Of a DNA stretch of 64,000 nucleotides, positions 4,463-43,430 are shown piece by piece. A program made the position numbers and the translations under genes. This stretch comes from Ignavibacteriales bacterium CG07_land_8_20_14_0_80_59_12 (lineage in GTDB: Bacteria > Bacteroidota > Ignavibacteria > 0-14-0-80-59-12). Within the stretch, counting starts at the first letter, position 1; every line of letters begins with the position of its first letter. The DNA lies in the NCBI GenBank assembly GCA_002779395.1, contig PEWR01000061.1, positions 5,104-69,103 on the forward strand, given 5' to 3'. The notes under the pieces were generated by a model that saw nothing but the letters and a program-made list of their open reading frames with translations, made no database searches and was not told where the DNA came from.

Positions 4463-5388
4463 CGCGCCGCCTGTTTCGAAAGGGCCTCCCGGTCGACGAT
4501 GCCGACGTCCACAGGCACGGCCCGCGGCACCTTCTCTCCGGCGAAGCAGGCCCTGATCTCATCGATCGTCGCGGAGCCAATCTTCTTCGGGTACTGGACG
4601 ACATCCGCCTTCAGTGGTGTCCCCCTCATGATCGCGTCCGCCGCGGGAGGCGTCGCATCGTACCCCACGATGACGACCTTCGACCGCTTGAACTGCTGAA
4701 CCGCATCGAGTGCGCCGAGTGCCGAATCATCATTGATCCCGAAAATCCCATTCAGGTCAGGGTGGGCCTGCAGCGCGTCGGCCGCAACCTCAAGCGATTT
4801 GTCGCGGACTCCCTGTCCGTTGACATCGGCAGCCACCTCTATCCCGGGGTACTTCGCAATAGCTTCGCGGAAGCCCTGCACACGGTCGAGGACTGATGTG
4901 ATCGCGGGCTGATTGATGATGCCGATCTTCCCCTTCCCGCCGAGCAACTTCGCGAGGTACTCCCCTGCGAGACGTCCACCCGCGACGTTATCCGATGCGA
5001 TGTGGCAGACAACATCTCCTTCCTCGGCAGCAATGTCCGCCGTAAAGACCGGGATGCCCGCTTTGTTCGCCTTCCTGATCCCCGTTCCGACTCCCTTCGA
5101 GTCCACCGGACAGACGAGGATCGCATCGACTTTTCTTGCCACGAAGTCTTCAATCTGCGCAGTCTGCTTTCCGAGATCGAAATCGGCCGATGTGATGATC
5201 AGATCGTAGTTGTGCTTCGCCGCTTCCTGCTTCAACCCATCCTCGAGGTCGCGGTAGAACATGTGGCCACGTGTGAGGAGTGTCACGCCGATCACTTTCG
5301 CCCCTTTTTTCTCTTCCTTCTTTCCACATGAGCCGAAGAGGAATGAAATCGCCAGCGCACAGCACAGGACCATCGCAATTCGTTTCAT
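4459..5388 (-). CDS. Periplasmic sugar-binding lipoprotein of the ABC transporter (RbsB-like)
   Basis: Lipoprotein signal MKRIAMVLCCALAISFLFGSCG. Type-I periplasmic-binding fold motifs are present (KVIGVTLL..., DAILVCPVDS, IVGYDATP). Confidence 0.9.
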   Translation of the reverse strand: MKRIAMVLCCALAISFLFGSCGKKEEKKGAKVIGVTLLTRGHMFYRDLEDGLKQEAAKHNYDLIITSADFDLGKQTAQIEDFVARKVDAILVCPVDSKGVGTGIRKANKAGIPVFTADIAAEEGDVVCHIASDNVAGGRLAGEYLAKLLGGKGKIGIINQPAITSVLDRVQGFREAIAKYPGIEVAADVNGQGVRDKSLEVAADALQAHPDLNGIFGINDDSALGALDAVQQFKRSKVVIVGYDATPPAADAIMRGTPLKADVVQYPKKIGSATIDEIRACFAGEKVPRAVPVDVGIVDREALSKQAAR

Positions 5389-5406
5389 ATCATGCTCCAG
5401 GCTTCG

Positions 5407-5649
5407 TTAGACCGTTTCGATGCCCGATTTCAGCGGAAGGAGAAGGGCGATGACAAAGGCAAGAATACCGAGCCCAAAGAAGACGTGGCCGATCCCGGCA
5501 TCGTGTTCAAGCAGGCCGAGAGTCCCAAGCATATAGGACCAGTCATGTGTTCCCTTCCCGAGGAGGGGTAGAACGTGCGCCCGTGCATCGGCGGCGTAGA
5601 CGCTGATGTTGATGAGGTTCTGACCGAGCCAGACGATGAAGACCTGCAT
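5407..5649 (-). CDS. Hypothetical small membrane protein (2 TM helices)
   Basis: The track ORF is 5407..5835, but only the C-terminal 80 aa from ATG 5649 (MQVFIVWLGQ... GLGILAFVIALLLPL) look protein-like. It lies 19 nt upstream of the binding-protein gene on the same strand. No homology is recognised. Confidence 0.3.
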   Translation of the reverse strand: MQVFIVWLGQNLINISVYAADARAHVLPLLGKGTHDWSYMLGTLGLLEHDAGIGHVFFGLGILAFVIALLLPLKSGIETV

Positions 5650-6212
5650 TCCGAACCGGTAGCCGTTCCTGAGGAAGTGAATCTTTTCCACATTTGCTGC
5701 GTAGTCAGTCAAGGGACTTGGCCAGCGTATGCCGCCGGATGGGATCAATGGCGAGCTCTCACGAGAGAACCGTTTGAGGGCCGCGGCGCTCGAACGCAGT
5801 GTTGAGAAATTACGCAGAAAACAGTAGAATAACAATCACTCCAGCCGCTGGATTCTCACGAGCTGTCGTGCCGCTTTTCTCGTCGTCTCCAGAGATCATC
5901 TTCATCCGCGTACACCAGCCCGTTCTCGTGTCGTCCGTGGTTCAATTCTTCTTCTCTGACACGCAGTTGCTTATATTGTGTGCATTGGCTCTCTTTGCCC
6001 CTCTCACACCGCACGAATATGGAGTCATGTGAATGGACAGGAATCGGATCTACCGCCACCTTGGCGAGTTCGAGCCCTTCAAGGACCTTGACGACCGGGA
6101 GCGCCGTCTCGTCGCCTGCAGCACGGAGGTGAAGCCAAGGAGTTTGAAGCCTTAAGCGGCCGCGATCGATTGTATACTCTGAGATGACACACTACAGGCG
6201 AGGCGAAAAACG

Positions 6213-6704
6213 ATGATGGACAAGCAACCGAATTCACGCATGTGCTTCATCTGCGGGCTGCAGAACCCGGTCGGTCTGAAGATGTCGATCTACAGCGACC
6301 CGGAAACGCGGCAGTCAACCTCCACTGTCACGATACCTGACCACTTCCGCGGATATCCCGGAGTAGTCCACGGCGGCATCATTGCGGCGATGCTCGATGA
6401 AGTCGCGGGGCGCGCGCTCCTCATCGACGGCGGCGACGACTATCTCATGGTCACCTTGAAGCTCGAAGTCAAGTACCGCCGTCCGACCCCCACGCTCACA
6501 CCGCTCACGATCGTCGGGAAGGTGACGCAGCCCGGCACCTCCCGGGCTGCCGTCCACGGTGAGATCCGCCTGCCCGACGGGACAGTCACTGCGGAGGCCG
6601 ATATCGTCCTCGCGCGAACGCCAGGGAGCGTCCGAGACCTGTGGGATGACGAGCGCGAGGACTGGAAGGTGTACCCGGACAACGAGGGGGCAGCCCCGAG
6701 TTGA
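6213..6704 (+). CDS. Hotdog-fold acyl-CoA thioesterase (PaaI/YbgC-like)
   Basis: CFICGxxNPxGL N-terminal motif and HGG catalytic region (YPGVVHGGIIAAMLDEVAG); 163 aa. Confidence 0.8.
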   Translation: MMDKQPNSRMCFICGLQNPVGLKMSIYSDPETRQSTSTVTIPDHFRGYPGVVHGGIIAAMLDEVAGRALLIDGGDDYLMVTLKLEVKYRRPTPTLTPLTIVGKVTQPGTSRAAVHGEIRLPDGTVTAEADIVLARTPGSVRDLWDDEREDWKVYPDNEGAAPS

Positions 6705-6787
6705 AGGGCTGCCGGCAGAACAACGAAATCCCGATGCCATTCGTCGTCCAGATGGAACACTTCATCATTTCTCCCTATTCTGATCTC

Positions 6788-6917
6788 CTAGAAGTCCGGC
6801 CGAAAACCCGCATGTCGACGGGAGTGTAGCATGAAGCTTGCGCCATTTCTTGAGCACACGTGATCTCAGAAGAAAAACAGGCGAATCCATGTTCAACCAG
6901 CGTGACGCTCAAGAGTC
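6788..6917 (+). mobile_element. Solo 130-bp left-end fragment of an IS5/IS1182-family element (copy 1). It includes the first 9 codons of the transposase, after which homology stops.
   Basis: It is about 97% identical (3 mismatches) to 9869..9998, where the same sequence continues into a transposase ORF. The shared string begins ctagaagtccggccgaaaacccgcatgtcgacggg and ends atgttcaacc[a/g]gcgtgacgctcaagagtc. Confidence 0.6.
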
Positions 6918-6939
6918 AAATAAGAGGTGAAAAGTCAAA

Positions 6940-6964
6940 CCCCCTCTCCATAGAGGAGAGGGGG
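6940..6964 (-). terminator. Probable intrinsic terminator for gene 6992..7570
   Basis: Perfect 10-bp GC-rich stem ccccctctcc/ggagaggggg with a 5-nt loop. On the minus strand it is followed by GTTTGACTTTTC. It lies 27 nt past the stop codon. Confidence 0.4.
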
Positions 6965-6991
6965 TTAAAGAACCTCTTCGGGGAGTGTGGT

Positions 6992-7570
6992 CTACCGCAC
7001 GTAGGCTAACTTCTTCACATTGGTGGATGTTCTGCTACTCACCTCAGATTTCGCCACCATACGATAGAAGTAAATCCCGCTGGCAACAGCCTCCGGCTTC
7101 CAATCAACTTTGTGAAAACCAGGTGGCTCAATCCCTTCAACGAGCGTTGCAACTTCTTCTCCAAGCACATTGTAGAGCTTGATGCTCACCTGAGATTCCT
7201 CAGGAAGTGCAAATTCAATCATAGTGCTCGGATTAAATGGATTCGGGTAGTTCTGCTCAAGCCGATACTCAGTAGGAAGCATCTCGCCCGGCTGCTCTGC
7301 TACACCTGTCAACAGATAGCGCTGCACGTGCCAGAAGCCGGCGATCTGCTTATTGGATGCATTGCTCGTTGTGCCGATGAATGGCTGTCCGAGCGTGCCA
7401 ACAAGCTTGTTGTCCCTGGAACTGAGTGAACCTCCTCCACTTCCAAAGACGCTCCGCGGGATGGCATACTGCCCTGATGCACTCTGGCAGAAGAGAAACA
7501 AGAAAACCACAATTCCTGCCGAAAAAATTGTCCCGCTAAAAGAAACGGGATTTTCAAGAAGATGTCTCAT
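6992..7570 (-). CDS. Small secreted protein with a T9SS C-terminal sorting domain (192 aa); cargo function unknown
   Basis: Signal peptide MRHLLENPVSFSGTIFSAGIVVFLFLFCQSASGQ. The last ~85 aa form a type-A Por secretion tail (NYPNPFNPSTMIEFALPEESQVSIKLYNVLGEEVATLV...GIYFYRMVA). GC is about 50% versus about 62% for the window. Confidence 0.8.
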   Translation of the reverse strand: MRHLLENPVSFSGTIFSAGIVVFLFLFCQSASGQYAIPRSVFGSGGGSLSSRDNKLVGTLGQPFIGTTSNASNKQIAGFWHVQRYLLTGVAEQPGEMLPTEYRLEQNYPNPFNPSTMIEFALPEESQVSIKLYNVLGEEVATLVEGIEPPGFHKVDWKPEAVASGIYFYRMVAKSEVSSRTSTNVKKLAYVR

Positions 7571-7583
7571 TTTTTTACCCTCC

Positions 7584-9617
7584 TCACTTTGCCTCTGGCT
7601 TTGCTTGCATCTTCTCTTGCTCAGCTTTCATCTTCTCTTGCTCAGCTTTCATCTTCTCTTGCTCAGCCCTCATCTGCTCCTCCATCTCGTGGTTCTTCTC
7701 ATAGTCTATACCCAACGTCTCTGATACGCCGTATTCCTTTGGATGGATGTACTTCCCTCGCTCCGCACCGGTTTTCTCCACCTCAACTTGAGCGGGATGC
7801 GCTTTAACATACGGGTCGTTACGGATGCCTGTGACCTGCCAGGAGACTCTCACGTTCGGTTTGTCAGTCTTGATTGAGAAGCGGTTGTTGTGAATTTCTT
7901 CACTCACGATTGCCTGAGCAAACTGTCCGATGACCGTTAATTGGTAGCGAAAGTCGCGGTTGAGGGCTTCGAAGTAGTCGGGTAGGGTGACCGTTGCCTC
8001 ACCATTAGCATCAGTAACGACGTTACCATTGTAGATATTCAGCACCTCATCCGACTCCACACAGAAATGGGCCAGGTACTTATTTGCCGGGTCGAGCGGA
8101 TGATCAATTTTGAATGACTTGTAGCCACCGACGTAGAGATGTCCTACGATCACCACATCGCCTTCGAAGTGGCCAGCGGGGGAGCTGCCGCTGCTCCAGC
8201 CATACACGGCGATGCCGGTGGTACTGTAGCCATATACGCCGTAGGGGTTGCCGGAGCCCCACACGCCGCAGTCACTCATGCCAAGGTATCCGAAGTTGCC
8301 GCTACTGCTGTAGCCATACACGCCATAGTCCGCGCCGTCGCCATACACGCCGTAGGTGCCGTGTCCATACACGCCGTAGCTTTGGCCGCCAAGGTATCCA
8401 TAGCGACCGCTCCCGTCGTTGCAGCCATACACGCCATACTCCCCGGCCTTGCCATACACGCCAGTGCTCCTGAAGCTCGTACCTCTGCCATAGACGCCGT
8501 AGCCGCTGTTGCTTTCGCCATACACGCCGTTGCCGCTGTTGTTGTAGCCATGCACGCCGTCGTTGCTGGTGCTTTCGCCATAGACGCCGTAGCCGCTGCC
8601 GCTGTAGCCATAGACGCCGTAGCCGCTGTTGCTGTAGCCAAACACGCCATCGTTGCTGTTGCTTTCGCCATACACGCCGTAGCCGCTGCCGCTGTAGCCA
8701 AACACGCCTTCGCCGCTGCTGCCAAGCCATCCGTAGTTGCCGCTGGTGCTGTGTATGCCAGACACGCCGGAGACGTAACCGCCAAGGTATCCGTAGCTGT
8801 CGCTAGTGCTGTTGTAGCCTTTCACGCCGGCGCCGCTGCCGGAATTTGTAGCAAAGATAATTGAATTTGGAGAAGCAGAGCTGCCGCTGAGTGAAAGAGG
8901 AACCCTCACGTTCAACGTCACATCACCAGTCGTTCCTCCACCGGATAAGCCTGTACCGGCAGTGACCCCAGTGATGTCGCCGCCAGCTCCGCCTGGGGTT
9001 GTGGCAATGGTCAAGGTGTTACCCAACGGGGTGATGCTTACGTTGGACCCTGCCTGCAGCGTGACGTTGTCGTGCAAGCTGTTCAGGCTCTTGACCACCT
9101 CTCCAGAGGCAATCTTGGTGCTGTCCACAGCACCATCGGCAATCTTCGCTGAGGTAACTGCATTGTTGTTAATACTTGGATTTGGATATCTCCCTGTTAA
9201 ATCACCGCCAGCTGTAATACCATTGATGCTGTCTGTGTTTGCAGCACGGAAGCTGTAGCCAGAGCCTGTCAACTGCATTCTCGGCGTAAGTTCCGTACCA
9301 GCTCCAACTGTTACTTCAAGCCAGTACGGCTTGTTAAAGGGCAGGTTTAATGTATCTACGCTCCCTAAGTTCACGCTGAATATCCCTTTGCTGACTGCAA
9401 CTGATTGTACCTCTTGCCATAGCGGCGTACCGCCTGTGGTAACGTCGTAGAGCTTGAAGGTGAGGCTGTAGTTACCATCAGGTACAGCCGTGCCGCTGGC
9501 ATCTGTCAAGATCCCCTGGTAGCTGATCGTCTTGGGAATTTGTGCAAGGCTCAATGGTGCAAGAAGAAGCACCATCAGTGCGATGGACAAGAATGTCCAA
9601 CGTAGAGTTGTGTTCAT
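7584..9617 (-). CDS. Gly/Tyr-rich repeat fibre-like secreted protein (677 aa). It has a signal peptide, an N-terminal beta domain, GYGVYG decapeptide repeats, a conserved C-terminal domain and a heptad coiled-coil tail.
   Basis: AAGGAGG RBS. Signal peptide MNTTLRWTFLSIALMVLLLAPLSLAQ. N-terminal domain ISYQGILTDASGTAVPDGNYSLTFKLYD. Central region has ~15 copies of the GYGVYG core across residues ~260-470, of which 8 are regular 30-bp units. C-terminal domain KSFKIDHPLDPANKYLAHFCVESDEVLNIYNGNVVTDANGEATVTLPDYFEALNRDFRYQLTVIG. Tail MRAEQEKMKAEQEKMKAEQEKMQAKPEAK. There is no T9SS C-terminal domain. Confidence 0.85.
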   Translation of the reverse strand: MNTTLRWTFLSIALMVLLLAPLSLAQIPKTISYQGILTDASGTAVPDGNYSLTFKLYDVTTGGTPLWQEVQSVAVSKGIFSVNLGSVDTLNLPFNKPYWLEVTVGAGTELTPRMQLTGSGYSFRAANTDSINGITAGGDLTGRYPNPSINNNAVTSAKIADGAVDSTKIASGEVVKSLNSLHDNVTLQAGSNVSITPLGNTLTIATTPGGAGGDITGVTAGTGLSGGGTTGDVTLNVRVPLSLSGSSASPNSIIFATNSGSGAGVKGYNSTSDSYGYLGGYVSGVSGIHSTSGNYGWLGSSGEGVFGYSGSGYGVYGESNSNDGVFGYSNSGYGVYGYSGSGYGVYGESTSNDGVHGYNNSGNGVYGESNSGYGVYGRGTSFRSTGVYGKAGEYGVYGCNDGSGRYGYLGGQSYGVYGHGTYGVYGDGADYGVYGYSSSGNFGYLGMSDCGVWGSGNPYGVYGYSTTGIAVYGWSSGSSPAGHFEGDVVIVGHLYVGGYKSFKIDHPLDPANKYLAHFCVESDEVLNIYNGNVVTDANGEATVTLPDYFEALNRDFRYQLTVIGQFAQAIVSEEIHNNRFSIKTDKPNVRVSWQVTGIRNDPYVKAHPAQVEVEKTGAERGKYIHPKEYGVSETLGIDYEKNHEMEEQMRAEQEKMKAEQEKMKAEQEKMQAKPEAK
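7603..7686. repeat. 21-bp tandem repeat, about 3.5 copies, encoding AEQEKMK heptads at the C-terminus of the fibre protein
   Basis: gcttgcatcttctcttgctca / gctttcatcttctcttgctca (twice) / a degenerate 4th unit. The period of 21 bp equals 7 aa. Confidence 0.8.
8482..8751. repeat. 30-bp imperfect tandem repeat, 8 regular units from 8512 with a degenerate copy upstream, encoding (S/N)SGYGVYGES decapeptides inside the fibre gene
   Basis: Units such as GCCATAGACGCCGTAGCCGCTGTTGCTTTC recur with 2-6 substitutions each. Antisense ORFs in the track (8139..8864, 8276..8785, 8302..8730) are artefacts of this repeat. Confidence 0.8.
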
Positions 9618-9868
9618 GGTACTACCTCCTTGTTTTGTTTGTTATGATGGTTTGTTTCCTAACGTGCAAAAGACGTTGGGCTGTTGACTGTCCCGCTGAA
9701 AAGAACGGGATTTTTCAATCTGTGCACATCTATGTTTACCCCTTTCCTTGTAGGAGAGGGTAGGGTGAGGTCATGAAATGCCTGGCTCATTGCTGCAACT
9801 GTTTCCTTCTGCATCCGCTTATTTACTGTTATATATAGTAGGAATTTGCTTCAGCTGCAAAAGATAAT

Positions 9869-10430
9869 CTAGAAGTCCGGCCGAAAACCCGCATGTCGAC
9901 GGGAGTGTGGCATGAAGCTTGCGCCATTTCTTGAGCACACGTGATCTCGGAAGAAAAACAGGCGAATCCATGTTCAACCGGCGTGACGCTCAAGAGTCTC
10001 TTCTCAATTCTGACAGTCAGTTTCTCAAAACTGTGGGTCGAGACACGTTCTATGGATTTCTCTCTGAGCATCGGCACGGGATCTTCCGTGACGACGACTT
10101 CGGATTTCTCTACTGCCGGAACAACGGCCGCCCGTCGGTCCCGCCGAGCATCTTAGCTCTCTCACTTCTCCTGCAGATCTACAACAAGGTCTCGGACGAC
10201 GAGGCGGCGCGCCGTGCCCACTTCGATCTCCAGTGGCAGGTCGCGCTCGGGATCCCCGTCGGTTCGCAAACGTTCGTCAAGAGCACGTTGCAGATGTTCC
10301 CTTCGCAACTCATTCTCCATGAGACAGCGCGCGACATTTTCATGAAGTCGATTGGCAACCACCTAACTGTCCGGAAGGCTGTGACACGGTACAACGCCGA
10401 GAATGCTCTCCGCCTCACCGATCAGGCTGT
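9869..10430 (+). mobile_element. Truncated IS5/IS1182-family element (copy 2): left end plus the N-terminal ~150 codons of the transposase. The 3' boundary is approximate.
   Basis: The first 130 bp duplicate 6788..6917. The encoded N-terminus contains the InsH-type DUF772 motif FLYCRNNGRPSVPPSILALSLLLQIYNKVSDDEAARRAHFDLQWQVALGI. There is no DDE catalytic region. The ORF runs into the oppositely oriented gene at 10435. Confidence 0.6.
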
Positions 10431-10506
10431 TCTGTCATTTCACCAAGGTCATCTTCTGAATCTTCGAGAACGACCCTCCCGTTATCTGATAGAAGTAGAG
10501 ACCTGA
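9970..10506 (+). pseudogene. Transposase N-terminal fragment (IS5/IS1182 family), truncated
   Basis: The true start is most likely MFNRRDAQESLL at 9970; the track ORF 9919..10506 starts at an upstream in-frame codon. Only ~150-180 aa of the expected ~450 are present, and the tail is probably read-through into antisense of the neighbouring gene. Confidence 0.55.
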
Positions 10507-10740
10507 GGAAAACCCTGAGGCGTCGAACAGAACCGCATGCATCCCGGGCGAGAGCGTCTCATCCACCAGCTTGGTGATTTCCCGGCCCATCGAGTCGAAA
10601 ACCCTCAGCACGACGTGTTCTGACTGTGGCAATTCAAAGCTTATCATGGTGTTTGGATTGAAGGGATTTGGAGAGAGGTGAAGCTTGCCCCTGTTGCGCC
10701 CGAATCGGATGTACGGCAATGGCGGCAAAACAGAAGGCAA
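10435..10740 (-). pseudogene. Orphan T9SS C-terminal sorting domain, a remnant of a decayed secreted-protein gene
   Basis: The track ORF begins at a TTG. Only the last ~80 aa are domain-like (SPNPFNPNTMISFELPQSEHVVLRVFDSMGREITKLVDETLSPGMHAVLFDASGFSSGLYFYQI). An ATG-initiated signal-peptide ORF (MRILSGIAVAFCFAAIAV...) lies in another frame at 10723-10765. The upstream PQQ gene is in the third frame. Confidence 0.5.
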
Positions 10741-10787
10741 CCGCGATACCGGACAAGATTCTCATTGTTTCCCCCTTTCTTGTTTGT

Positions 10788-12041
10788 TCATTTGATCGCG
10801 TATACGTGGTGACCGGGATTGTTGGAGCTCACATATATTCTCCCGTTACCGCTGATTGCCGGCGGAGAATCGATATTGGGGATCCAACCGCCCAGACCTC
10901 CCGCGAGATACATCTGAAACTTCATCGTGCCATCTGGATTCAGAGCAATGAAGTTGGTTGAATCGGCTGGATTCCCGTATGGTCTGCGAGAGTGAGTGAG
11001 TCCAAAGTAGATTGTCCCATCCACGTCAATGGCTGGTATGCAGTCAGAAAGTGCAGGAAGTGGGTATTTCCACTTCAGTCTGCCTGCGTAGTCGATCGCA
11101 TACAAATCCAAACACGTGATAACATAGATCGTGCCGTCCCATCCGATGATGGGCCCGATGCCCAACCCTGTCCAGGGCACTCCAGGGAGTCGCCACCGCA
11201 GCACGCCCGATTGGTCGAACGAGCATAATTCATCCGCTCCGGCACAGAAGTAGACATTGCCGTCGTTGTCAACTGCAGGCGCCGATGGTACTTTTCTGCA
11301 AGTCAACCTCAAATGACCGCTCGTGTCCACAGCATAAAGCGCGTGGCCACCAGGGACATAGAGTAATGTGCCATCCGGGCTCATCGCCGGTGAGTATTGA
11401 ACGGAGTCACTGTCGGGCTTCCACTTCCAGTGTAGTGTCCCATCCCTTCGGATAGCGTATAGTGAACCTACCGCAAGATAGACTGTTCCCCCATCTTTCG
11501 AGATTACCGGCGAACTGAAGCTCGCATTCCCTACCACAGGGAATCTCCATTTCAGAAAACCACCACGGTCATAAGCAAACAGGTACCGTTGCCAGTTGTC
11601 ATAACCGTCCACGTGCACATTCCCATCAGCAGCGACCAACGCCGAGCCGTCTCCTGCAGTGGATTTGCTCCACTTTAACTGACCATCTGCTCCTATGGCG
11701 AGGAAATCCGGAGAAAAAGAACTGACGCGCACGTAGATTGTCCCGTTTTCATCAATCACCGGGGATGAGAATACCCCACCGCCAGCGAAAAACGTCCACT
11801 CGACTTTCCCCTCTTGCGGACCGCGGTACGGGCTCCTTCCGGTATGCTGCGCATCATGGAGGAACATTGGCCAGGGGGAATTGGCTAACCCCGGCCAGGA
11901 GATCTCATGTTGTTGCTTGGTTAGAAAATGCGCGGTGTCCGGCGGCGCAACTAGTTGGCTGTTCTTCCTACATGACGCGGAGAAGAGAGCGAAGGACAGG
12001 ATGAGAACTGATCCCACAAATGCTGCAAGTGCGCTTCGCAT
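10788..12041 (-). CDS. PQQ-like beta-propeller repeat lipoprotein (BamB-like fold)
   Basis: AGGAGG RBS. Lipoprotein signal LILSFALFSASC. Repeated xDGTIY(V/F) blades recur throughout (DENGTIYV, DGNVHV, DGGTVYLAV, DGTLLYV, DGNVYF, DGTIYV, NGRIYV). GC is about 52%. Confidence 0.8.
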   Translation of the reverse strand: MRSALAAFVGSVLILSFALFSASCRKNSQLVAPPDTAHFLTKQQHEISWPGLANSPWPMFLHDAQHTGRSPYRGPQEGKVEWTFFAGGGVFSSPVIDENGTIYVRVSSFSPDFLAIGADGQLKWSKSTAGDGSALVAADGNVHVDGYDNWQRYLFAYDRGGFLKWRFPVVGNASFSSPVISKDGGTVYLAVGSLYAIRRDGTLHWKWKPDSDSVQYSPAMSPDGTLLYVPGGHALYAVDTSGHLRLTCRKVPSAPAVDNDGNVYFCAGADELCSFDQSGVLRWRLPGVPWTGLGIGPIIGWDGTIYVITCLDLYAIDYAGRLKWKYPLPALSDCIPAIDVDGTIYFGLTHSRRPYGNPADSTNFIALNPDGTMKFQMYLAGGLGGWIPNIDSPPAISGNGRIYVSSNNPGHHVYAIK

Positions 12042-12501
12042 CTTTAACCTCCTGTATATCGTGACACTCTATTATCGGAGAGATGAGTATGCAAGCAGAA
12101 GCGTTCGCACCTCTCTCCCGAAAACGTCGAAGACCTTCAAGACGACCGGCTCCTTCACCGGGATCTTGAACTCGATCAGGGTCGATGCGCCCCGGAAGCT
12201 GGATCGGAGGATTCGGAGTGAGGTAGACGTAGTTGTCGTTCGGTTCATTCCGGTAAGCGTACCGGTATTCGAGCCGACCGCACGTTCGCCCGCGGAACGC
12301 GTTCATGTCGGAGATCGAGAACCTTGTCGCCAGGGTGTCGATGTTCAATCCACTCATGCTCCACTCCGCGGGCGAGGAGAAGTCCTGCATGAGATAGCTT
12401 CCAGCCGGTGCGACAACCTTCACGGTGGCGGTGTCCGATACGCCTCCGTAGCGGCACACAACGATTGCCTCGCCGCTCCGTTGCCCGCCGTGACGGGGAC
12501 C

Positions 12502-13344
12502 TCAGAACTTCAGGACCTCACGAATCCGCTTGAGAACCGGCTGGATTTCACGGTCCCAGAATTTCCAGTCGTGCCTTCCCGGCACCTCGCGATATTCGTA
12601 CCACGCCCCTGCGGCCCGGAGCGAATCCGCAAGTGCGCGGTTTCGCAGAAGAATGCTCTCCAGTCCATCCTGGATGCCGACGGCCATGTAAATGTACGGA
12701 AGTGTCCCGGGCTCTGCCTCCTTGTACACGGTAAACAGATCGTCGCCCGGCGGGAACGTACTTCGTTTCTCTCCGTACGCCTTCTCAAGGCTCGGCAGAA
12801 CCCACGAAAACGAGGGCTTCTTCTTGTACTCCTCGACGTCTCCAGGCATCGCGAGGACGCCGCTGAGACTCCCGGCAAAGCGGAACTTGTTTGGGTGCTT
12901 CATCGCGACGAGAAGTGAACCGTACCCTCCCATTGAGAGTCCAGCGATTGCCTGTCGAGCTGTGTCGACTGAGTATTTCTGCTGAATGAAGCGCAGAAGA
13001 TCGATCGCGATGTAGTCCTCATACCGCCCCCGGGGATCGGTCACAGAATTAACATACCACGAGTCGTCCGCATCCGGCATCACGACAATGAGAGGCAAGT
13101 CGGCGACATACTTCGAGATGGAAGTCCGCGTCGTCCAGTCAACAAAGCTCCCGGTGAGCCCATGAAGCAGGTAGAGCGAAGGGTACCGCTTTGAGGCGTC
13201 ATAACCCGAGGGGAGCAGGACTATCAGCTTCTTGACGCTGTCGAGGCTCGGGACGAAGAAGCTGTCGGTTACGGCGATCGTCTCTGCGAGCGCCGCGGCG
13301 GAGTTAAGGAGCAATACCGCGACAAGAGTGGCCCGTCTCTTCAT
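12502..13344 (-). CDS. Secreted esterase (Esterase D/enterochelin-esterase-like alpha/beta hydrolase)
   Basis: The start is placed at the internal ATG 13344 (MKRRATLVAVLLLNSAAALA signal peptide). The track ORF extends to 13491. GLSMGG nucleophile elbow and the LYLLHGLTGS motif are present. Confidence 0.85.
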   Translation of the reverse strand: MKRRATLVAVLLLNSAAALAETIAVTDSFFVPSLDSVKKLIVLLPSGYDASKRYPSLYLLHGLTGSFVDWTTRTSISKYVADLPLIVVMPDADDSWYVNSVTDPRGRYEDYIAIDLLRFIQQKYSVDTARQAIAGLSMGGYGSLLVAMKHPNKFRFAGSLSGVLAMPGDVEEYKKKPSFSWVLPSLEKAYGEKRSTFPPGDDLFTVYKEAEPGTLPYIYMAVGIQDGLESILLRNRALADSLRAAGAWYEYREVPGRHDWKFWDREIQPVLKRIREVLKF

Positions 13345-13536
13345 GTTGCATCCATCTTCATGTGAGCATTGTCCACGTGAACGCTGGTTCGAGAGGGATG
13401 TTGTAGCAGTGGGCCGTGTCCCAGAAACCGGGGTACTCGAGCCAGGCAGGAAATGGCGGCGTCCAGCTGAGCCGATTGCCGCCACCGACAAACCACTTCT
13501 CCTCGCGTGAGAGAAACCGAACGGGGTCTATTCGTC

Positions 13537-16152
13537 TCATTTGAACACGACCTGAACTTGATGCTTCACGAATTCCCCGCCCCGACCACCTGGAATCTGC
13601 ACGTGGATGACGTCGCCGTCCAGTGCCGCCCCGGTGACTGAAGCAACCCGGGAGGCGTTCCTGACAGGGAGAGAATAGGCCTCTCCGCTCACTCCCTCAA
13701 CCAGAAGCCTCAGCGTGTCCCCCTCCAGGTTCTGTGAGACGACTTTCAACGAGTAGTTCGTCGCGCCGGGACTCGTCTGGATTGCCGGTGCGACGATTTC
13801 AGGGACCGCATTCCACTCAAGCGCGGCGACCGACCGGGCAGAGACAGAGAGACGAACCGTTGGATGGACGTCCTGCGAGTTCAGCGAAAGCTCCGCATCA
13901 GCCGGCGTGCCATCGAGGACCGCCTTCACTTCTCGAACACCGAGGGGAAGTGCGGGCGAGAATTGAAGCTCCACCACGCCCGGGCCCTCCTTCCTGACCC
14001 GAAGCTCCATGCTCCCGTTCGTGCGTTTCAGAATGAGATCGACGGTCATCAGGCCGACACGAACGTTTCTCACCGCGATGCTGTCCCAGTCCGGGGAAAG
14101 GTGGGGGGCAAACAGAATCTTCCCTCTCACCGCGTCGACCTCCAATCCAAGGAGCCCCCGCACCAGCGGGACAACATATCCGGTAGTGGAGAACCCCTGG
14201 TGGTGGTACGCCTCACCAAGCTTCTGGTTAAGTGTCCCCGAAAAGACCTCGGGAACGCAGCCGATTCCGTTCGTGAACGCCTGCCGAACCACGGAACAAA
14301 GCGTCTGATATCCGGAGAGGCCGAAGTGATGCCGGAATTGCGCCGTCCCGAGGAACGTCGATAGAAAAGGCCACACGGCCCCATAGTTGTAGTTCGTGGG
14401 CTCGAAGTACGCGGATGACGGCGGGAGGGAGCGTGTCCCCCAGTCCGTGCAGAGGTCAGCGCCGCTGTAGGCTTCGAGACTCTGCAGAGTGCGGTTCTCG
14501 TCAAGCAGGCTGAACATCATGGCGGTGGCGGGCCAAGGTGTTTTCTCCTTTACCTGCTCGTTTTCCTCCGTTGCACCGTAGCTGTAGAAGCCGAGGTCGT
14601 TCATCCAGAACTTCTGTTCAAGCGCCTTCTGCGCGCGGATGAGTTGCGGCTCGGCGGCTTTCCGCATTTCGTGATCGCCGACCACATCCGCCATCTCAGT
14701 CATTTCTCTTATTGCCTGCGTCCACACCGCGCACGTGTACATATCGGCATAGATGCCGACAAGCTTCCCAAACTCCAGCGCGCCGAGCCCGGCACCTTTC
14801 AGGTCCATCAAGCCGTCGCCGTCGCTGTCCTTGGACAGGCACCATTGGTACGCCTGCTTGAGCGACCGCCAGCTCTTCTTGATGAAATCCGCGTCGCCGC
14901 TTGAGCGGAGGTAGTCCCCCATCGCGACGATGTACCACGGCGTCGTGTCGGCATGGTTGTAGCCGTAGTGGTAGTCGTTCCACCAGTCGACGAGTCCGTC
15001 GCTCTGCGACAGCTCATGCGCCATCTTTCCAACGTCCCTGTTCACAGTGCCCGGTCGCTTCCGAATCGGGAAATCTTCCTGCCGCTGCCACTTCTGCGCA
15101 AAGGCAAGGCCCTCCCGCACTGCAGCAAAGGCACCGTAGCTGTCGAACGCAAGCGTGTTGATAAACGCATCCCCACCGAAGAACCATGCAAACCCCGGAC
15201 GCGCGCTCCCACCCGAGAGTCCGAAGCCGGCGACGAGGCCCGTCCCGAGTGCCGGATTCCTCACGAGAAGATTGTCGAGCGCAATCTTCCCCCATTCGAA
15301 AGCCCTATCAATCTCCTTCACGGGAGTCGAGATCTGCACCGTTGACTCGCGGAGTGCCCGGTAATATCCTTGATTCCGCTTGTACAGTCCTTCCGCATCT
15401 GTCCACAGGTGCTTATAAATCGACTTCACGGAGTCCATCTTCATCCCTTGGCCCCCTGCAATCACGAGTGGGATGAAATGGCCTGCTGATTCGCCCGCAC
15501 TCAGGCTAATCTTGAACTGGAGCGGCGCGTCGGCGAACATATGCGCGGGAGGCGCCGCCATCGGCTCGCTCGCCGGTGACCCGCAGAGGAAGATCGCCCG
15601 CCACCTCCCCTCTGAGATAACGTATGCGTTCGCGACATCGTCCCAGTAGCTGAACTGCCCTCCGATTCCTGCGGGCCACATCGGCTCCATGACGGGAAGG
15701 AAGCTTGCCACGATGGTGAGCGGAGCAGTCGTGTGGACATCGAGGAGAAGGACCGCCCCCGGCTCGTCCAGCGGGACGATGGCGATCTCTCGCACCGTGA
15801 ACGACTCATAGGAGTAGGTAATAACCGTCGCTTCGGGCGCCACGGAGACCGTGCGGACAACGTCGCGCGCAAGGATCGGCTGCGTCGACGTGCCGAGAAG
15901 GAATGAGAGTTCGAAATTCCGCAGCGGCTTCCAGGGCCACACCCACATCTCGAACGAGCCGCTCTCGTAGCCCATGAGGCCAGCCCTGCGGCCGATCTTG
16001 TCGAAGTACTGGAGCGGTTGCGCGAGCCGCGTCACCTCGATGTCGCTTAGCTCAAGCCTGAAGGCAGGGACGAGGACTGTGTCCGGCAGCGCCTCACGCG
16101 CGAACCCGATCGTGACACTGCATATGAGAAGGAGAATCCAACGGCGCATCAT
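13537..16152 (-). CDS. Secreted glycoside hydrolase, six-hairpin (alpha/alpha)6 clan GH-G-like (amylo-alpha-1,6-glucosidase/GH63-type catalytic domain) with extra beta domains
   Basis: The start is placed at ATGATG 16152 (MMRRWILLLICSVTIGFA signal peptide). The track ORF extends to 16365. Motifs read directly: PGFAWFFGGDAFINTL (the WF-GRD-type motif) and WWNDYHYGYNHADTTPWYIVAMGDYL. Length 871 aa. Confidence 0.7.
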   Translation of the reverse strand: MMRRWILLLICSVTIGFAREALPDTVLVPAFRLELSDIEVTRLAQPLQYFDKIGRRAGLMGYESGSFEMWVWPWKPLRNFELSFLLGTSTQPILARDVVRTVSVAPEATVITYSYESFTVREIAIVPLDEPGAVLLLDVHTTAPLTIVASFLPVMEPMWPAGIGGQFSYWDDVANAYVISEGRWRAIFLCGSPASEPMAAPPAHMFADAPLQFKISLSAGESAGHFIPLVIAGGQGMKMDSVKSIYKHLWTDAEGLYKRNQGYYRALRESTVQISTPVKEIDRAFEWGKIALDNLLVRNPALGTGLVAGFGLSGGSARPGFAWFFGGDAFINTLAFDSYGAFAAVREGLAFAQKWQRQEDFPIRKRPGTVNRDVGKMAHELSQSDGLVDWWNDYHYGYNHADTTPWYIVAMGDYLRSSGDADFIKKSWRSLKQAYQWCLSKDSDGDGLMDLKGAGLGALEFGKLVGIYADMYTCAVWTQAIREMTEMADVVGDHEMRKAAEPQLIRAQKALEQKFWMNDLGFYSYGATEENEQVKEKTPWPATAMMFSLLDENRTLQSLEAYSGADLCTDWGTRSLPPSSAYFEPTNYNYGAVWPFLSTFLGTAQFRHHFGLSGYQTLCSVVRQAFTNGIGCVPEVFSGTLNQKLGEAYHHQGFSTTGYVVPLVRGLLGLEVDAVRGKILFAPHLSPDWDSIAVRNVRVGLMTVDLILKRTNGSMELRVRKEGPGVVELQFSPALPLGVREVKAVLDGTPADAELSLNSQDVHPTVRLSVSARSVAALEWNAVPEIVAPAIQTSPGATNYSLKVVSQNLEGDTLRLLVEGVSGEAYSLPVRNASRVASVTGAALDGDVIHVQIPGGRGGEFVKHQVQVVFK

Positions 16153-42384: not shown

Positions 42385-42496
42385 CAACTCTTGACTGCCG
42401 GACTGCTTGCCACGGCTATCAATAGACCTTGTTGCGCTCGGTGAGAGACTATGCGCAAGCCGGTGAAAGACGGGGCTAGTGTGCGTCGCTCCGCGT

Positions 42497-42997
42497 CTAT
42501 GCCTTGGGCTTTCGAGGATATCCATACAACTTGGTTGCGCAATCCGGACAGATTCCGTGCGTAGCCTGCCGTCCCCCGCTCTCCTCCAGGTATTTCTCGA
42601 TAGGGAACCACTGACCTTCTTCAGTTCGGTACTTCTTGCAGTTGGCACAAATAGGAAGCAGAGTCTCCAAGTCACGGATACGCTTTTCTTCTGCCTGCTG
42701 ATGCTTGATGATCTTTATGAAGCCAAGAATAAGGAGCACAATACCCATAGCATCCGCGACATTTCCCATCTGAGCAAAAACCGTTTCGAGTGTTTTTGCG
42801 GATAGACCAAGGAGTTCGGGAAGCCGGCTGGACGGATGTTCGACGAGAACGTCGCACAAGCGACCTATGGAGAGAAAACAGACGGCTGGAAGTATTGGCG
42901 CGAGCGAGAAGAACCGATCCCTTTCTCTCCACACAGTGAAGAACCCCCAAAGGAGAAGAAAGAAGGTAAGCAGATCAACCGCAACAACTATGTCCAT
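42497..42997 (-). CDS. Small membrane protein with a C-terminal Cys-rich putative zinc-ribbon/metal-binding domain
   Basis: Two N-terminal TM helices, an amphipathic segment, then LPICANCKKYRTEEGQWFPIEKYLEESGGRQATHGICPDCATKLYG (CxxC...HGICPxC). GC is about 52%. Confidence 0.6.
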   Translation of the reverse strand: MDIVVAVDLLTFFLLLWGFFTVWRERDRFFSLAPILPAVCFLSIGRLCDVLVEHPSSRLPELLGLSAKTLETVFAQMGNVADAMGIVLLILGFIKIIKHQQAEEKRIRDLETLLPICANCKKYRTEEGQWFPIEKYLEESGGRQATHGICPDCATKLYGYPRKPKA

Positions 42998-43067
42998 TTT
43001 TCAACTCCTATCGTGTTCCCATCTTGCCAAGTGAGCTAGGCAGGCAAGGGCGCAAATGTTTCTGCGC

Positions 43068-43253: not shown

Positions 43254-43310
43254 TCAGGTGACGGTACCGTTGATGGGTGTGAGAAGGGGCTCAGAAACTG
43301 GCGAGTTTTG

Positions 43311-43384: not shown

Positions 43385-43401
43385 ATGACAATCCACTCAG
43401 A

Positions 43402-43430
43402 AATTTAGCAATTCGACAGATCGTTTGCAA
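43402..43430 (-). promoter_or_regulatory. Sigma70-type promoter TTGCAA-N17-TAAATT for tRNA-Arg
   Basis: The -10 box ends 17 nt before the mature tRNA 5' end. Confidence 0.45.

What the first reader, a model, noticed from the sequence alone, without database searches (positions are those of the whole stretch)
6700..12050. Lower-GC accessory island (about 50% vs about 62%) carrying T9SS-related and fibre genes and punctuated by IS remnants
Every gene from about 6.9 to 12.05 kb has A/T-rich third codon positions compared with the flanking thioesterase (about 58-60%) and esterase/GH genes (about 60-65%). This covers the small T9SS-tailed protein, the Gly/Tyr repeat fibre gene, the orphan T9SS-domain ORF and the PQQ-propeller lipoprotein. 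The segment contains two truncated direct copies of the same IS5/IS1182-type element and a decayed, multi-frame gene. These are the hallmarks of horizontally acquired DNA that has since been rearranged. It is the only clearly accessory block in the window and the best candidate for an undescribed cell-surface module (a T9SS-exported small protein plus a non-T9SS secreted fibre).
Basis: seen in the sequence. Interest (0 to 1): 0.7.

Follow-up and report, generated by a model that had tools for sequence, protein, structure and literature searches.

The report
Strain-variable surface-fibre gene islet
A low-GC, strain-variable 5.7-kb patch in an uncultured Ignavibacteriales genome holds, between insertion-sequence scraps, a widely conserved gene pair: a phage-tail-fibre-like surface fibre and a small secreted partner that probably docks the fibre to the cell.

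Summary
Window 6700-12050 is 53.0% GC against 59.9% for the rest, not 50 vs 62. It is the lowest 5.35-kb stretch of the window (z = -5.1). GC3 is 0.54-0.65 against 0.75 +/- 0.04.

The gene content is as described. There are two direct copies of an IS1182-family left end (6788-6917 and 9869-~10359) and two decayed T9SS-tail remnants.

The block is not one unit.
- Part A (6788-10359) is a fibre cassette bracketed exactly by the IS repeats. A sister strain (98.7% identical flanks) diverges from the window exactly at the truncated IS end and carries a different low-GC gene there.
- Part B is present in all strains seen. It holds the signal-peptide/CTD remnant and a PQQ propeller gene whose interior is hypervariable.

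The main result is the cassette itself. In all 11 instances examined, from eight genomes, the small T9SS-tailed gene has a fibre gene immediately upstream. The fibre N-domain resembles the Bdellovibrio MAT N-domain below the curated threshold. Its C-domain is shared with phage tail proteins. The small protein's 50-residue N-module co-varies with the fibre N-domain (Mantel r = 0.94).

I infer a T9SS-delivered docking partner for a MAT-like fibre. I could not find an empty site.

The parts
6788..6917 (+). IS1182-family left-end fragment 1. It is 130 bp, starts at the IS terminus CTAGAAGTCC... and is truncated internally.
   Evidence: 98% identical direct repeat of 9869-9998. The 40-mer occurs exactly twice, with 0 expected. 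Several independent assemblies break at or just after it.
6938..6966 (-). Strong terminator hairpin (12 pairs) ending the fibre/small-protein transcription unit.
   Evidence: Terminator scan. It lies 26 nt after the small protein's stop codon and 21 nt from the truncated end of IS fragment 1.
6992..7570 (-). Small T9SS cargo protein ('T9small', 192 aa). It consists of a signal peptide, a conserved ~50-aa N-module (QYAIPRSVFGSGG...GTLGQPFIG...AGFW, aa 34-82), a linker and a type A CTD (aa 108-192).
   Evidence: PF18962 29.4 bits (cut-off 27) and TIGR04183 32 bits (cut-off 23). Family alignment A1. In the AF2 model the CTD has pLDDT 92-97 and the N-module 46-51. 225 clusters at 50% identity carry the N-module. 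GC 49.9%, GC3 0.539.
7584..9617 (-). Fibre protein (677 aa) with a Sec signal peptide and no CTD. Its parts are a MAT-like beta-rich N-domain (aa ~27-125, nt 9243-9539), a neck, Gly/Tyr 10-residue repeats (nt ~8178-8840), a phage-type C-domain (aa ~486-635, nt 7713-8162) and a helical tail with EQEKMKA repeats (nt 7593-7676).
   Evidence: NF053851 Bdello_MAT_N matches aa 16-86 at E 9e-7 and 28.8 bits, below the cut-off of 60; 49 of 52 family members match. The period-30 repeats were found. In the AF2 model the N-domain has pLDDT ~90 and the C-domain ~95. The C-domain alone is found in 29 IMG/VR loci. BFVD gives 31 hits at E <= 1e-3, and the named ones are phage tail proteins. A 21-nt repeat indel at 7608-7628 distinguishes assemblies.
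9618..9868 (-). AT-rich (42% GC) upstream region of the fibre gene. It contains a hairpin at 9689-9714 that recurs at 7529-7554.
9869..10359 (+). IS1182-family left-end fragment 2 (~490 bp). It has the same terminus as fragment 1 plus the N-terminal third of the transposase (DUF772) and is truncated internally.
   Evidence: PF05598 38.7 bits. NF033551 IS1182 matches model positions 5-123 of 488 only. Its inner end is defined by the point where sister strain L179 diverges.
10435..10766 (-). Dead T9SS cargo gene. An RBS, ATG and signal peptide (43-codon frame) are followed, in a different frame, by a complete type A CTD, with no passenger domain.
   Evidence: Three-frame translation. CTD PF18962 34.2 bits. 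It is 97-100% identical in strains L181/L084 and present in L179 with a few substitutions.
10788..12041 (-). PQQ-like beta-propeller, a probable lipoprotein (417 aa). It is an ordinary family member, but its interior is hypervariable between near-identical strains.
   Evidence: PF13360 46.7 bits. 3,717 relatives at E <= 1e-5. Against L084 it is 56-92% identical per 100 nt, with indels, while the esterase next door is 99-100% identical.
12100..12476 (-). Window-specific segment that replaces a 186-bp AT-rich spacer of the sister strains. It holds a truncated, frame-shifted remnant of another T9SS cargo gene (first half of a CTD at ~12100-12230).
   Evidence: Not alignable to L084/L179. The stitched translation is 43% identical over 44 aa to the orphan CTD, pairwise E 2e-10. 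No Pfam hit.

Best explanation
The region is a recombination-prone accessory hot spot for cell-surface genes in the chromosome of an uncultured Ignavibacteriales bacterium (Crystal Geyser MAG CG07_land_8_20_14_0_80_59_12). It lies between a thioesterase gene and an esterase/GH116-like gene.

Its core (6788-10359) is a laterally circulating two-gene cassette, transcribed from about 9868 to the terminator at 6938-6966. The cassette sits exactly between two direct copies of an IS1182-family left end.

Inferred insertion route: the cassette entered by recombination through IS homology. A Campbell-type single crossover of a circle carrying 130 bp of IS would give exactly this '130 bp - insert - 130 bp plus the rest of the IS' layout. 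The IS was later truncated.

The rest of the block (10360-12476) is older debris of T9SS cargo genes plus a PQQ-propeller lipoprotein gene that diversifies between strains.

Inferred function of the cassette:
1. The 677-aa protein is exported by Sec and forms a trimeric fibre resembling a phage tail fibre or a Bdellovibrio MAT fibre.
2. The 192-aa protein is exported by the T9SS. Its CTD is removed and its C-terminus is fixed to the cell surface, as for type A cargo.
3. Its free 50-residue N-module then serves as the docking site for the fibre's conserved N-terminal domain, so the fibre projects from the cell with its C-domain distal.

Shown here: the composition, the repeats, the strain polymorphism, the gene pairing, the domain homologies and the co-variation. 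Inferred: the horizontal origin in this genome, the insertion mechanism, trimerisation, surface anchoring and the docking interaction.
For: Composition: 53.0 vs 59.9% GC, z = -5.1; GC3 0.54-0.65 vs 0.753 +/- 0.040.

Genuine arrangement: independent assemblies reproduce it; two span the whole block and the others cover part of it.

IS bracket: 130-bp repeats at 6788 and 9869 share the same terminus, and the cassette terminator and promoter region fill the space between them exactly.

Strain variability: L179 is 98.7% identical over window 22228-12476. It then carries a different PQQ allele and diverges at 10359/10360, which is the truncated IS end. A BNR-repeat gene follows (GC3 0.48) that has no counterpart in the window. 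L181/L084 combine the L179 PQQ allele with the window's IS fragment, so recombination has occurred.

Lateral circulation of the cassette: its closest relatives sit in hosts with very different GC and differ from them in the opposite direction.
- L175: fibre/small-protein GC3 0.63/0.46 vs host 0.31, next to a tyrosine recombinase, with the fibre N-domain 81% identical to the window's.
- L002: 0.48/0.43 vs 0.29.
- L003: 0.46/0.38 vs 0.33.
- More distant cassettes match their hosts (L143, L174) or lie only slightly below them (L177).

Pairing: the small-protein gene directly follows a fibre gene (4-bp overlap to 99-nt gap; 314 nt after the truncated fibre in L002) in the window, L002 x2, L003 x2, L143 and L174, and in all three look-ups seeded from the small protein (L175, L177/L178, L182).

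Fibre identity:
- 49 of 52 family members hit NF053851 Bdello_MAT_N.
- Only the C-domain is shared with 29 viral contigs.
- BFVD matches are phage tail proteins.

Docking inference:
- The N-module identity matrix tracks the fibre N-domain matrix: Mantel r = 0.94, p = 0.0008 for 8 cassettes; r = 0.92 for 12; partial r = 0.92 controlling for the C-domain. It does not track the adjacent fibre C-domain (partial r = -0.19) or its own CTD (r = 0.39).
- The N-module is conserved within its clade (window vs close relatives 65-87% identical over the N-terminal 110 aa; 0.33-0.92 across all eight cassettes) but folds at low confidence alone (pLDDT 46-51).
- The same module heads larger T9SS cargo that carry dockerin, cohesin, BACON, TIG or PKD domains.
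- The MAT paper states that the partner of the MAT N-domain is unidentified (PMC10769870).
Against: - No relative with an empty thioesterase-esterase site was found. All contigs with an identical thioesterase belong to one strain and carry the cassette.
- The L179 contig ends 0.7 kb past the breakpoint, so a fibre cassette further along in that strain is not excluded.
- Other genomes are too distant for synteny: GH identity is 63% or less over alignments longer than 2.3 kb, and 66-67% on two short partial contigs.
- Part of the fibre's GC deviation in low-GC hosts comes from Gly-rich composition, not history.
- The MAT N-domain match is below NCBIfam's curated cut-off (28.8 vs 60 bits).
- How a CTD-less fibre crosses the outer membrane is unexplained.
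- The co-variation rests on 8-12 cassettes that are phylogenetically structured. It could reflect co-inheritance of the two slowly evolving segments while the C-domain and CTD are swapped.
- No complex prediction or experiment was possible.
- Some fibres occur in tandem without an intervening small-protein gene (L142).
Confidence: 0.62

Rival explanations
1. The block is native, not acquired. Its low GC and GC3 reflect the amino-acid composition and weak codon adaptation of rarely expressed surface-protein genes and AT-rich spacers. The IS fragments are incidental insertions in a permissive spot.
For: The block is fixed in every assembly of this strain. PQQ propellers and fibres of this family are common in Ignavibacteria and Bacteroidota. 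Distant cassettes match their host GC3 closely (L143, L174) or lie slightly below it (L177), so the family can be resident. Spacers at 42-51% GC pull the average down.
Against: The deviation is at synonymous sites (z = -5.4, -2.7 and -4.5 for the three genes). The closest cassette relatives deviate from their hosts in the opposite direction, and L175 has GC3 0.63 in a 0.31 host. The IS repeats bracket the cassette exactly. A sister strain has other DNA at the IS breakpoint.
Confidence: 0.18
2. The cassette is the remnant of a prophage or tailocin. The fibre is a leftover phage tail fibre and the small downstream gene is its tail-fibre assembly or adhesin gene, analogous to gp37/gp38 or Tfa.
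For: The C-domain (aa ~488-631) occurs in 29 IMG/VR contigs at up to 53% identity. PHROG tail families match weakly. BFVD and PDB best matches are phage tail proteins, tailspikes and the R2 pyocin fibre. The gene order, fibre then small gene, mimics phages.
Against: There are no other phage genes in the block. The fibre has a Sec signal peptide and a bacterial MAT-like N-domain that is absent from all 29 viral loci. The small protein's N-module is also absent from those loci. The small protein has a signal peptide and a T9SS CTD, which an intracellular chaperone would not need. Cassettes occur as tandem chromosomal paralogues next to other T9SS cargo.
Confidence: 0.07
3. The small T9SS protein is not an anchor but a secretion adaptor or co-exported chaperone. 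It binds the fibre in the periplasm and supplies the T9SS signal in trans, so the CTD-less fibre is carried out with it.
For: The fibre has no CTD yet is always encoded with a CTD protein. The N-module co-varies with the fibre N-domain. The module is predicted to be disordered alone. This would also explain how the fibre crosses the outer membrane.
Against: No precedent for trans-acting CTDs was found in the papers searched, and none is known to me. The same N-module heads large multi-domain T9SS cargo, which fits a displayed docking head better than a dedicated chaperone. Tandem fibres without their own small gene exist.
Confidence: 0.13

Closest known systems
Bdellovibrio bacteriovorus MAT (mosaic adhesive trimer) fibres, non-S74 subfamily (Caulton et al. 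2024, PMC10769870; NCBIfam NF053851)
   Same: Both have a signal peptide directly followed by a conserved beta-rich N-domain, a long repetitive shaft and a phage-related C-terminal domain, in a chimeric build. They occur as several paralogues per genome. In both, the partner of the N-domain is an unknown surface element.
   Different: The N-domain matches the MAT model only below the curated cut-off (28.8 vs 60 bits). The host is a T9SS-bearing Ignavibacteriales bacterium with no evidence of predation. Here the C-domain is conserved and the Gly/Tyr shaft varies, whereas MAT tips vary. The fibre gene is always followed by a small T9SS cargo gene, which was not reported for MATs and cannot exist in that form in Bdellovibrio, which to my knowledge lacks a T9SS.
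Type A CTD cargo of the type IX secretion system (Por_Secre_tail, PF18962/TIGR04183), for example A-LPS-anchored proteins of Porphyromonas gingivalis
   Same: The small protein has a Sec signal peptide and a C-terminal type A sorting domain above the curated cut-offs. The expected fate is CTD removal and surface attachment.
   Different: The passenger is only about 70 residues: a 50-residue conserved module plus a linker, with no enzyme or adhesin domain. It is genetically tied to a CTD-less fibre.
Phage tail fibre genes with a small downstream assembly or adhesin gene (T4 gp37/gp38, lambda/Mu Tfa)
   Same: The gene order, fibre then small partner, is the same. The fibre C-domain is homologous to phage tail proteins.
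   Different: The partner here is secreted and surface-targeted. It co-varies with the fibre's N-terminal domain rather than its C-terminal domain. There is no phage context.
IS1182-family insertion sequences (ISNCY/IS5-related, DUF772 N-terminal domain)
   Same: The transposase N-terminus matches NF033551 and PF05598. Two copies share one terminal sequence.
   Different: Both copies are left-end stumps (130 and ~490 bp) without the DDE domain or a right end, so they are non-functional. They mark past recombination rather than a live element.
Hypervariable genomic islets or flexible regions encoding cell-surface structures
   Same: It shows atypical composition and alternative gene content at one chromosomal site between near-identical strains. 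It also carries pseudogenes, IS debris and a diversifying surface lipoprotein gene.
   Different: It is very small (about 5.7 kb), has no tRNA or integrase at its borders, and no empty-site allele has been seen yet.

Membership tests
MAT fibre family (NF053851 / PMC10769870) | Match to the N-domain model at the curated cut-off (60 bits) | tested here: not met
   28.8 bits, E 9e-7, aa 16-86 on model positions 2-74 of 162. 49 of 52 relatives also match, with best E 7.9e-10. The window's own score is below the cut-off; member bit scores were not reported. This points to a homologous domain in a different subfamily.
MAT fibre family (NF053851 / PMC10769870) | [quoted passage not shown] | tested here: met
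   In the AF2 model, helix 3-23 is followed by a strand-only domain at aa 31-116 with pLDDT ~90. Family-invariant residues include Q34, L37, G42, W67, G78, G85, F94, L100 and R113.
MAT fibre family (NF053851 / PMC10769870) | Trimeric fibrous shaft | not testable with these tools
   Only a monomer model could be made, and the shaft has pLDDT 37-55. The period-30-nt Gly/Tyr repeats are compatible with a fibre but prove nothing.
MAT fibre family (NF053851 / PMC10769870) | C-terminal S74 chaperone-protease, or an alternative adhesive tip | tested here: inconclusive
   No Peptidase_S74 or any other Pfam hit. The C-domain is shared with phage tail proteins, but here it is the conserved part rather than a variable tip.
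MAT fibre family (NF053851 / PMC10769870) | Surface localisation and a role in cell-cell recognition | not testable with these tools
   Needs experiment.
T9SS type A CTD cargo | C-terminal Por_Secre_tail domain above the curated cut-off | tested here: met
   Small protein: PF18962 29.4 bits (cut-off 27) and TIGR04183 32 bits (cut-off 23). Orphan ORF: 34.2 and 36.1 bits. The AF2 CTD has pLDDT 92-97.
T9SS type A CTD cargo | N-terminal Sec signal peptide | tested here: met
   The hydrophobic helix at aa 12-31 ends in ...SASG/QY, is conserved across 37 homologues, and precedes the invariant module. No dedicated signal-peptide predictor was available.
T9SS type A CTD cargo | T9SS machinery (PorU/V/Z, SprA etc.) in the same genome | not tested
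   Only a 64-kb window is available. I did not look for machinery genes.
IS1182 family | Full transposase with a DDE catalytic domain | tested here: not met
   Only model positions 5-123 of 488 are present, scoring 62 bits against a cut-off of 270. Both copies are truncated.
IS1182 family | Two terminal inverted repeats and a target-site duplication | tested here: not met
   Only the left terminus is present, twice and in direct orientation. No inverted repeats were found in 5000-14000.
Genomic island / flexible islet | Atypical composition relative to the host | tested here: met
   z = -5.1 for GC; GC3 z between -2.7 and -5.4.
Genomic island / flexible islet | Presence/absence or content polymorphism between close strains | tested here: inconclusive
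   L179 has different DNA at the IS breakpoint and a different PQQ allele. Its contig ends 0.7 kb later, and no empty site was found.
Genomic island / flexible islet | tRNA or integrase at a border | tested here: not met
   The only tRNAs are at 43.3 and 46.0-46.2 kb. There is no recombinase ORF in the block. A related cassette in L175 does sit next to a tyrosine recombinase.

The most novel reading that the evidence does not exclude
The small T9SS cargo is a new kind of cell-surface 'socket'. It would be a T9SS-delivered, surface-anchored 50-residue docking module that holds the conserved N-terminal domain of MAT-like, phage-derived fibres. This would let T9SS-bearing bacteria display CTD-less fibres and swap fibre shafts, tips and anchors as matched sets. 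It would name a partner for the kind of N-domain whose receptor is still unknown in Bdellovibrio MATs. It would also define a widespread, unannotated fibre-display system in Ignavibacteria and related FCB lineages.
Probability: 0.33. Interest if true: 0.72.

Novelty: new variant of a known kind. Interest (0 to 1): 0.5.

Why it matters
The islet itself is ordinary flexible-genome biology. It is a small, IS-scarred, low-GC hot spot for surface genes, useful mainly as a marker of strain diversity in a groundwater Ignavibacteriales population.

The cassette inside it matters more. Thousands of 'hypothetical' fibre proteins in Ignavibacteria, Chlorobi-like and KSB1 genomes share a MAT-like N-domain. 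Every small T9SS cargo gene of this family that I examined sits directly after such a fibre gene. The small protein's 50-residue N-module co-varies with the fibre N-domain.

If the small protein is the fibre's docking site, three things follow:
- It gives a concrete, testable candidate for how MAT-type fibres are held on a cell surface, which the 2024 MAT paper left open.
- It adds a new role for T9SS cargo: displaying another protein.
- It suggests these bacteria exchange phage-derived adhesion fibres laterally across hosts with very different GC content.

Tried and rejected
1. Synteny test in other species. A genome-contig scan with the GH116-like neighbour returned 80 loci, but identities were only 43-67% and gene order was not conserved. 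The exception was L017, where the GH is followed by an SSS transporter, galK and the same sugar ABC operon. This cannot show an empty site.

2. A metagenome scan with the esterase gave one close relative (L084, 3 kb). The others were 56% identical or less.

3. Exact-protein look-ups of the thioesterase returned only the same strain.

4. Sequence searches of the fibre against PDB chains, as a single sequence and as a profile, gave no hits. Foldseek against PDB gave nothing at E <= 1e-3. The afdb50 library was unavailable, so I could not compare the N-domain with AlphaFold models of Bdellovibrio MATs.

5. The N-module of the small protein was modelled at low confidence, so I did not attempt a fold search with it.

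6. The ORF 11968-12459 ('hyp163') has no family hit. I read it as a frame through a dead cargo gene, not a gene. The stitched CTD remnant has no Pfam hit and rests on a pairwise match.

7. Prophage reading: rejected for lack of phage genes and absence of the N-domain and small gene from viral loci.

8. Misassembly: rejected.

9. Sigma-70 promoter scan: no enrichment, and it is not appropriate for this phylum.

10. Rfam: only three tRNAs, none in the block.

11. Literature: no paper in the library describes DUF5907 or this cassette.

Full report
**Source**

The fibre and the PQQ protein are 100% identical to proteins of 'Ignavibacteriales bacterium CG07_land_8_20_14_0_80_59_12'. The window is therefore chromosomal DNA of an uncultured, unusually GC-rich (59%) member of the Ignavibacteria.

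**Observation**

Window 6700-12050 has 53.0% GC against 59.9% for the remaining 58.6 kb.

- Of all 5351-bp windows, those starting at 6701-6901 are the lowest. Windows that do not overlap the block average 59.9 +/- 1.4% and never fall below 56.4%, so z = -5.1.
- The block's tetranucleotide signature correlates with the rest at r = 0.51, against 0.85 or more for windows clear of the 4-12 kb neighbourhood. The fibre repeats contribute to this.
- At third codon positions the three intact genes score 0.539, 0.645 and 0.574. Forty-three other ORFs give 0.753 +/- 0.040.
- The block is not uniform. The Gly/Tyr repeat stretch is 59% GC, the spacers 42-51% and the IS fragment 56%.
- A second, smaller low-GC patch lies at 42.1-43.6 kb beside tRNA-Arg.

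**Anatomy, all on the minus strand unless stated**

1. 6788-6917 (+): 130 bp of an IS left end.
2. 6938-6966: a 12-pair terminator.
3. 6992-7570: a 192-aa protein with a signal peptide, a short conserved module and a type A T9SS CTD.
4. 7584-9617: a 677-aa protein with a signal peptide and no CTD.
5. 9618-9868: a 42% GC upstream region.
6. 9869-~10359 (+): the same IS left end, continuing into the first third of an IS1182-type transposase (DUF772).
7. 10435-10766: a ribosome-binding site, ATG and signal peptide in one frame, followed by a complete CTD in another frame with no passenger. This is a dead gene.
8. 10788-12041: a PQQ-like beta-propeller with a lipobox-like ...FSASC.
9. 12100-12476: a segment whose stitched translation is 43% identical over 44 residues to the first half of the orphan CTD. 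This is a second dead cargo gene.

Supporting calls: 2, 5-9, 38, 43, 57, 72, 75, 77.

**Is it an artefact?**

No. Contigs assembled independently from several JGI and ENA samples match the window at 99.7-100% across the same junctions. Two of them span the whole block (16.3-16.7 kb); the others cover part of it.

- The only length difference is a 21-nt indel in the EQEKMKA repeat at the fibre's C-terminal tail, giving 670 vs 677 aa.
- Three contigs stop inside or 0.1 kb past the first IS repeat, as assemblers do at repeats.

Supporting calls: 15, 24, 25, 43.

**Is it accessory?**

Cross-species synteny was uninformative. The nearest genomes share only 43-67% identity in the neighbouring GH, and gene order differs. 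In one distant relative (L017) the GH and the sugar ABC operon that flank the block here are neighbours, with a transporter and galactokinase between them.

Closer strains were informative.

- L179 (ENA, 75.8-kb contig) is 98.7% identical to window 22228-12476. It loses alignment in the PQQ upstream spacer, then carries a PQQ allele about 85% identical and the same dead signal-peptide/CTD gene.
- It departs from the window exactly at 10359/10360. This is where the IS1182 homology ends; the family model alignment stops at about nt 10348.
- Beyond that point L179 encodes the start of a BNR-repeat protein (GC 51.6%, GC3 0.48) that has no counterpart anywhere in the window.
- L181/L084 carries the L179 PQQ allele together with the window's IS fragment at 97-100% identity. 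At least three haplotypes therefore exist, and recombination has shuffled them.

The IS/fibre side of the block is thus strain-variable. The CTD remnant and PQQ side is shared, but the PQQ interior is a mosaic of 56-92% identity next to an esterase that is 99-100% identical.

I did not find an empty site, and the L179 contig ends 0.7 kb past the breakpoint.

**The cassette**

The fibre has more than 4,900 relatives, mostly unnamed, in Ignavibacteria, Chlorobi-like, Bacteroidota and KSB1 bins. Their contexts show a rule.

- The fibre gene is followed on the same strand by a 172-192-aa T9SS-tailed gene. The spacing runs from a 4-bp overlap to 99 nt, except 314 nt after the C-terminally truncated second fibre of L002.
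- This holds in the window, L002 (twice), L003 (twice), L143 and L174.
- It also holds in all three look-ups seeded from the small protein instead: L175/L176, L177/L178 and L182.
- Some fibres stand in tandem without an intervening small gene (L142).

**Fibre domains**

- The N-domain (aa ~27-125; AF2 pLDDT ~90, all-beta) matches NCBIfam NF053851 'Bdello_MAT_N' at E 9e-7. It scores 28.8 bits against a cut-off of 60. Of 52 relatives, 49 match, with best E 7.9e-10.
- The MAT paper (PMC10769870) says all 21 Bdellovibrio MATs have such a domain directly after the signal peptide. [quoted passage not shown]
- The C-domain (aa ~486-635; pLDDT ~95) is the only part found in IMG/VR: 29 loci at up to 53% identity.
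- BFVD gives 31 structural matches at E <= 1e-3. The named ones are phage minor tail or tail-fibre proteins.
- PDB matches are weak, led by tailspike C-domains and the R2 pyocin fibre.
- There is no S74 domain.

The protein is therefore a chimera of a bacterial MAT-like base and a phage-type distal domain, joined by a variable Gly/Tyr shaft.

**The small protein**

- Its N-terminal 110 residues, which include the 50-residue module after the signal peptide, are 65-87% identical to most of its relatives in the word-indexed search (38-50% for the most distant). The invariant residues are V41, G45, G61, Q62, G66, G78 and W80.
- Alone, the module is modelled at pLDDT 46-51, while the CTD reaches 92-97.
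- An exhaustive search finds the module in 225 clusters at 50% identity, nearly always at residues ~22-90 of 170-190-aa proteins.
- It also occurs at the N-terminus of larger T9SS cargo carrying dockerin, cohesin, BACON, TIG or PKD domains before the CTD.
- Type A cargo are fixed by their C-terminal end after CTD removal (established T9SS knowledge). The module would therefore be the free, distal end of a surface-anchored stalk.

**Co-variation**

Among eight verified cassettes, the matrix of pairwise identities of the N-module tracks that of the fibre N-domain.

| Comparison | Result |
|---|---|
| N-module vs fibre N-domain, 8 cassettes | Mantel r = 0.94, p = 0.0008 |
| N-module vs fibre N-domain, controlling for C-domain | partial r = 0.92 |
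| N-module vs adjacent fibre C-domain, controlling for N-domain | partial r = -0.19 |
| N-module vs its own CTD | r = 0.39 |
| N-module vs fibre N-domain, 12 cassettes (four pairs inferred from equal contig lengths, one later verified) | r = 0.92 |

The two co-varying segments are the two ends of the cassette that lie furthest apart. Simple linkage would predict the opposite pattern. The sample is small and phylogenetically structured, so I treat this as suggestive.

**Horizontal movement**

The cassettes most similar to the window's sit in hosts of very different composition and deviate from them upward.

| Locus | Fibre / small-protein GC3 | Host GC3 | Note |
|---|---|---|---|
| L175 | 0.63 / 0.46 | 0.31 | Next to a tyrosine recombinase; fibre N-domain 81% identical to the window's |
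| L002 | 0.48 / 0.43 | 0.29 | |
| L003 | 0.46 / 0.38 | 0.33 | |
| Window | 0.645 / 0.54 | 0.753 | Deviates downward |
| L143, L174 | ~host | ~host | More distant cassettes |
| L177 | 0.70 / 0.77 | 0.81 | More distant cassette; slightly below host |

One cassette clade with intermediate GC3 in hosts from 0.29 to 0.75 is hard to explain without lateral transfer. Gly-rich coding explains part of the total-GC excess in low-GC hosts, but not the GC3 pattern or the small protein's values.

**Mechanism of arrival (inference)**

The layout is: IS bases 1-130, the cassette, then IS bases 1-~490. Both IS pieces start at the true terminus and point the same way. A single crossover between a resident IS and a circular molecule carrying 130 bp of IS plus the cassette would produce this. 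The three differences between the repeats are all A in copy 1 and G in copy 2. A decayed composite transposon is an alternative.

**Verdict**

The region is a mosaic accessory hot spot, not one island, and its acquisition is inferred from composition, the IS bracket, strain polymorphism and cassette phylogeography rather than from an empty site.
- The islet is ordinary.
- The conserved fibre plus T9SS-partner cassette, and the co-variation that points to the MAT-like N-domain as the partner's target, is the part worth following up.

Noticed in passing
window 42100-43600: A second, smaller low-GC patch (53-56% GC). It holds a 166-aa membrane protein ORF at 42497-42997 (GC 50.5%, GC3 0.545) ending in a CxxC...CxxC motif, directly beside tRNA-Arg(ACG) at 43310-43384. 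It may be another small accessory insert at a tRNA.
   Followed up: partly
window 7529-7554 and 9689-9714: The same 26-nt hairpin-forming sequence (TGTCCCGCT.AAAGAACGGGATTTT, 88% identical) lies just inside the 5' end of the small-protein gene and about 70-95 nt upstream of the fibre start codon. It could be a shared regulatory or attenuator element, or chance.
   Followed up: no
window 7593-7676 (indel at 7608-7628): The 21-nt EQEKMKA tandem repeat in the fibre's helical tail varies in copy number between assemblies of the same strain (677 vs 670 aa). It is the only length difference in 16.7 kb.
   Followed up: yes
window 10880-11830 vs L084/L179: The interior of the PQQ-propeller lipoprotein gene is 56-92% identical, with indels, between strains whose flanking esterase is 99-100% identical. 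The first ~200 nt of the gene are 95-97% identical. The pattern looks like allelic replacement or diversifying selection on a surface protein.
   Followed up: partly
L175 4009-7396: A fibre/small-protein cassette with GC3 0.63/0.46 sits in a host with GC3 0.31, immediately next to a phage-integrase-family tyrosine recombinase gene. This is the clearest case of recent lateral transfer of this cassette type.
   Followed up: partly
proteins P0173, P0189, P0190, P0214, P0243, P0252, P0234: The 50-residue N-module of the small protein also heads much larger T9SS cargo that contain dockerin and cohesin, BACON, TIG or PKD domains. This hints at modular surface assemblies built on the same head.
   Followed up: partly
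L142 6060-15876; L003 10001-17117; L182 2925-7561: Fibre genes of this family often occur as tandem arrays of two to four paralogues. They sit next to beta-propeller T9SS cargo (BNR/sortilin, FG-GAP, NHL).
   Followed up: no
L174 15577-18166 and L182 74-2863: TPR-CHAT proteins lie beside the fibre cassette in two unrelated loci. The significance is unknown.
   Followed up: no
L017 12604-16764: In a distant Ignavibacteriaceae genome, the GH116-like gene and the sugar ABC operon that flank the block here are separated only by an SSS transporter and galactokinase. The block therefore interrupts what is elsewhere a carbohydrate-use cluster.
   Followed up: partly
window 6788-6917 vs L134: The single base substitution between the window and the 16.7-kb overlap with L134 appears to fall in IS repeat copy 1. 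Cross-matches show 2 rather than 3 mismatches to copy 2. This is consistent with gene conversion between the repeats or with assembly noise at a repeat.
   Followed up: no
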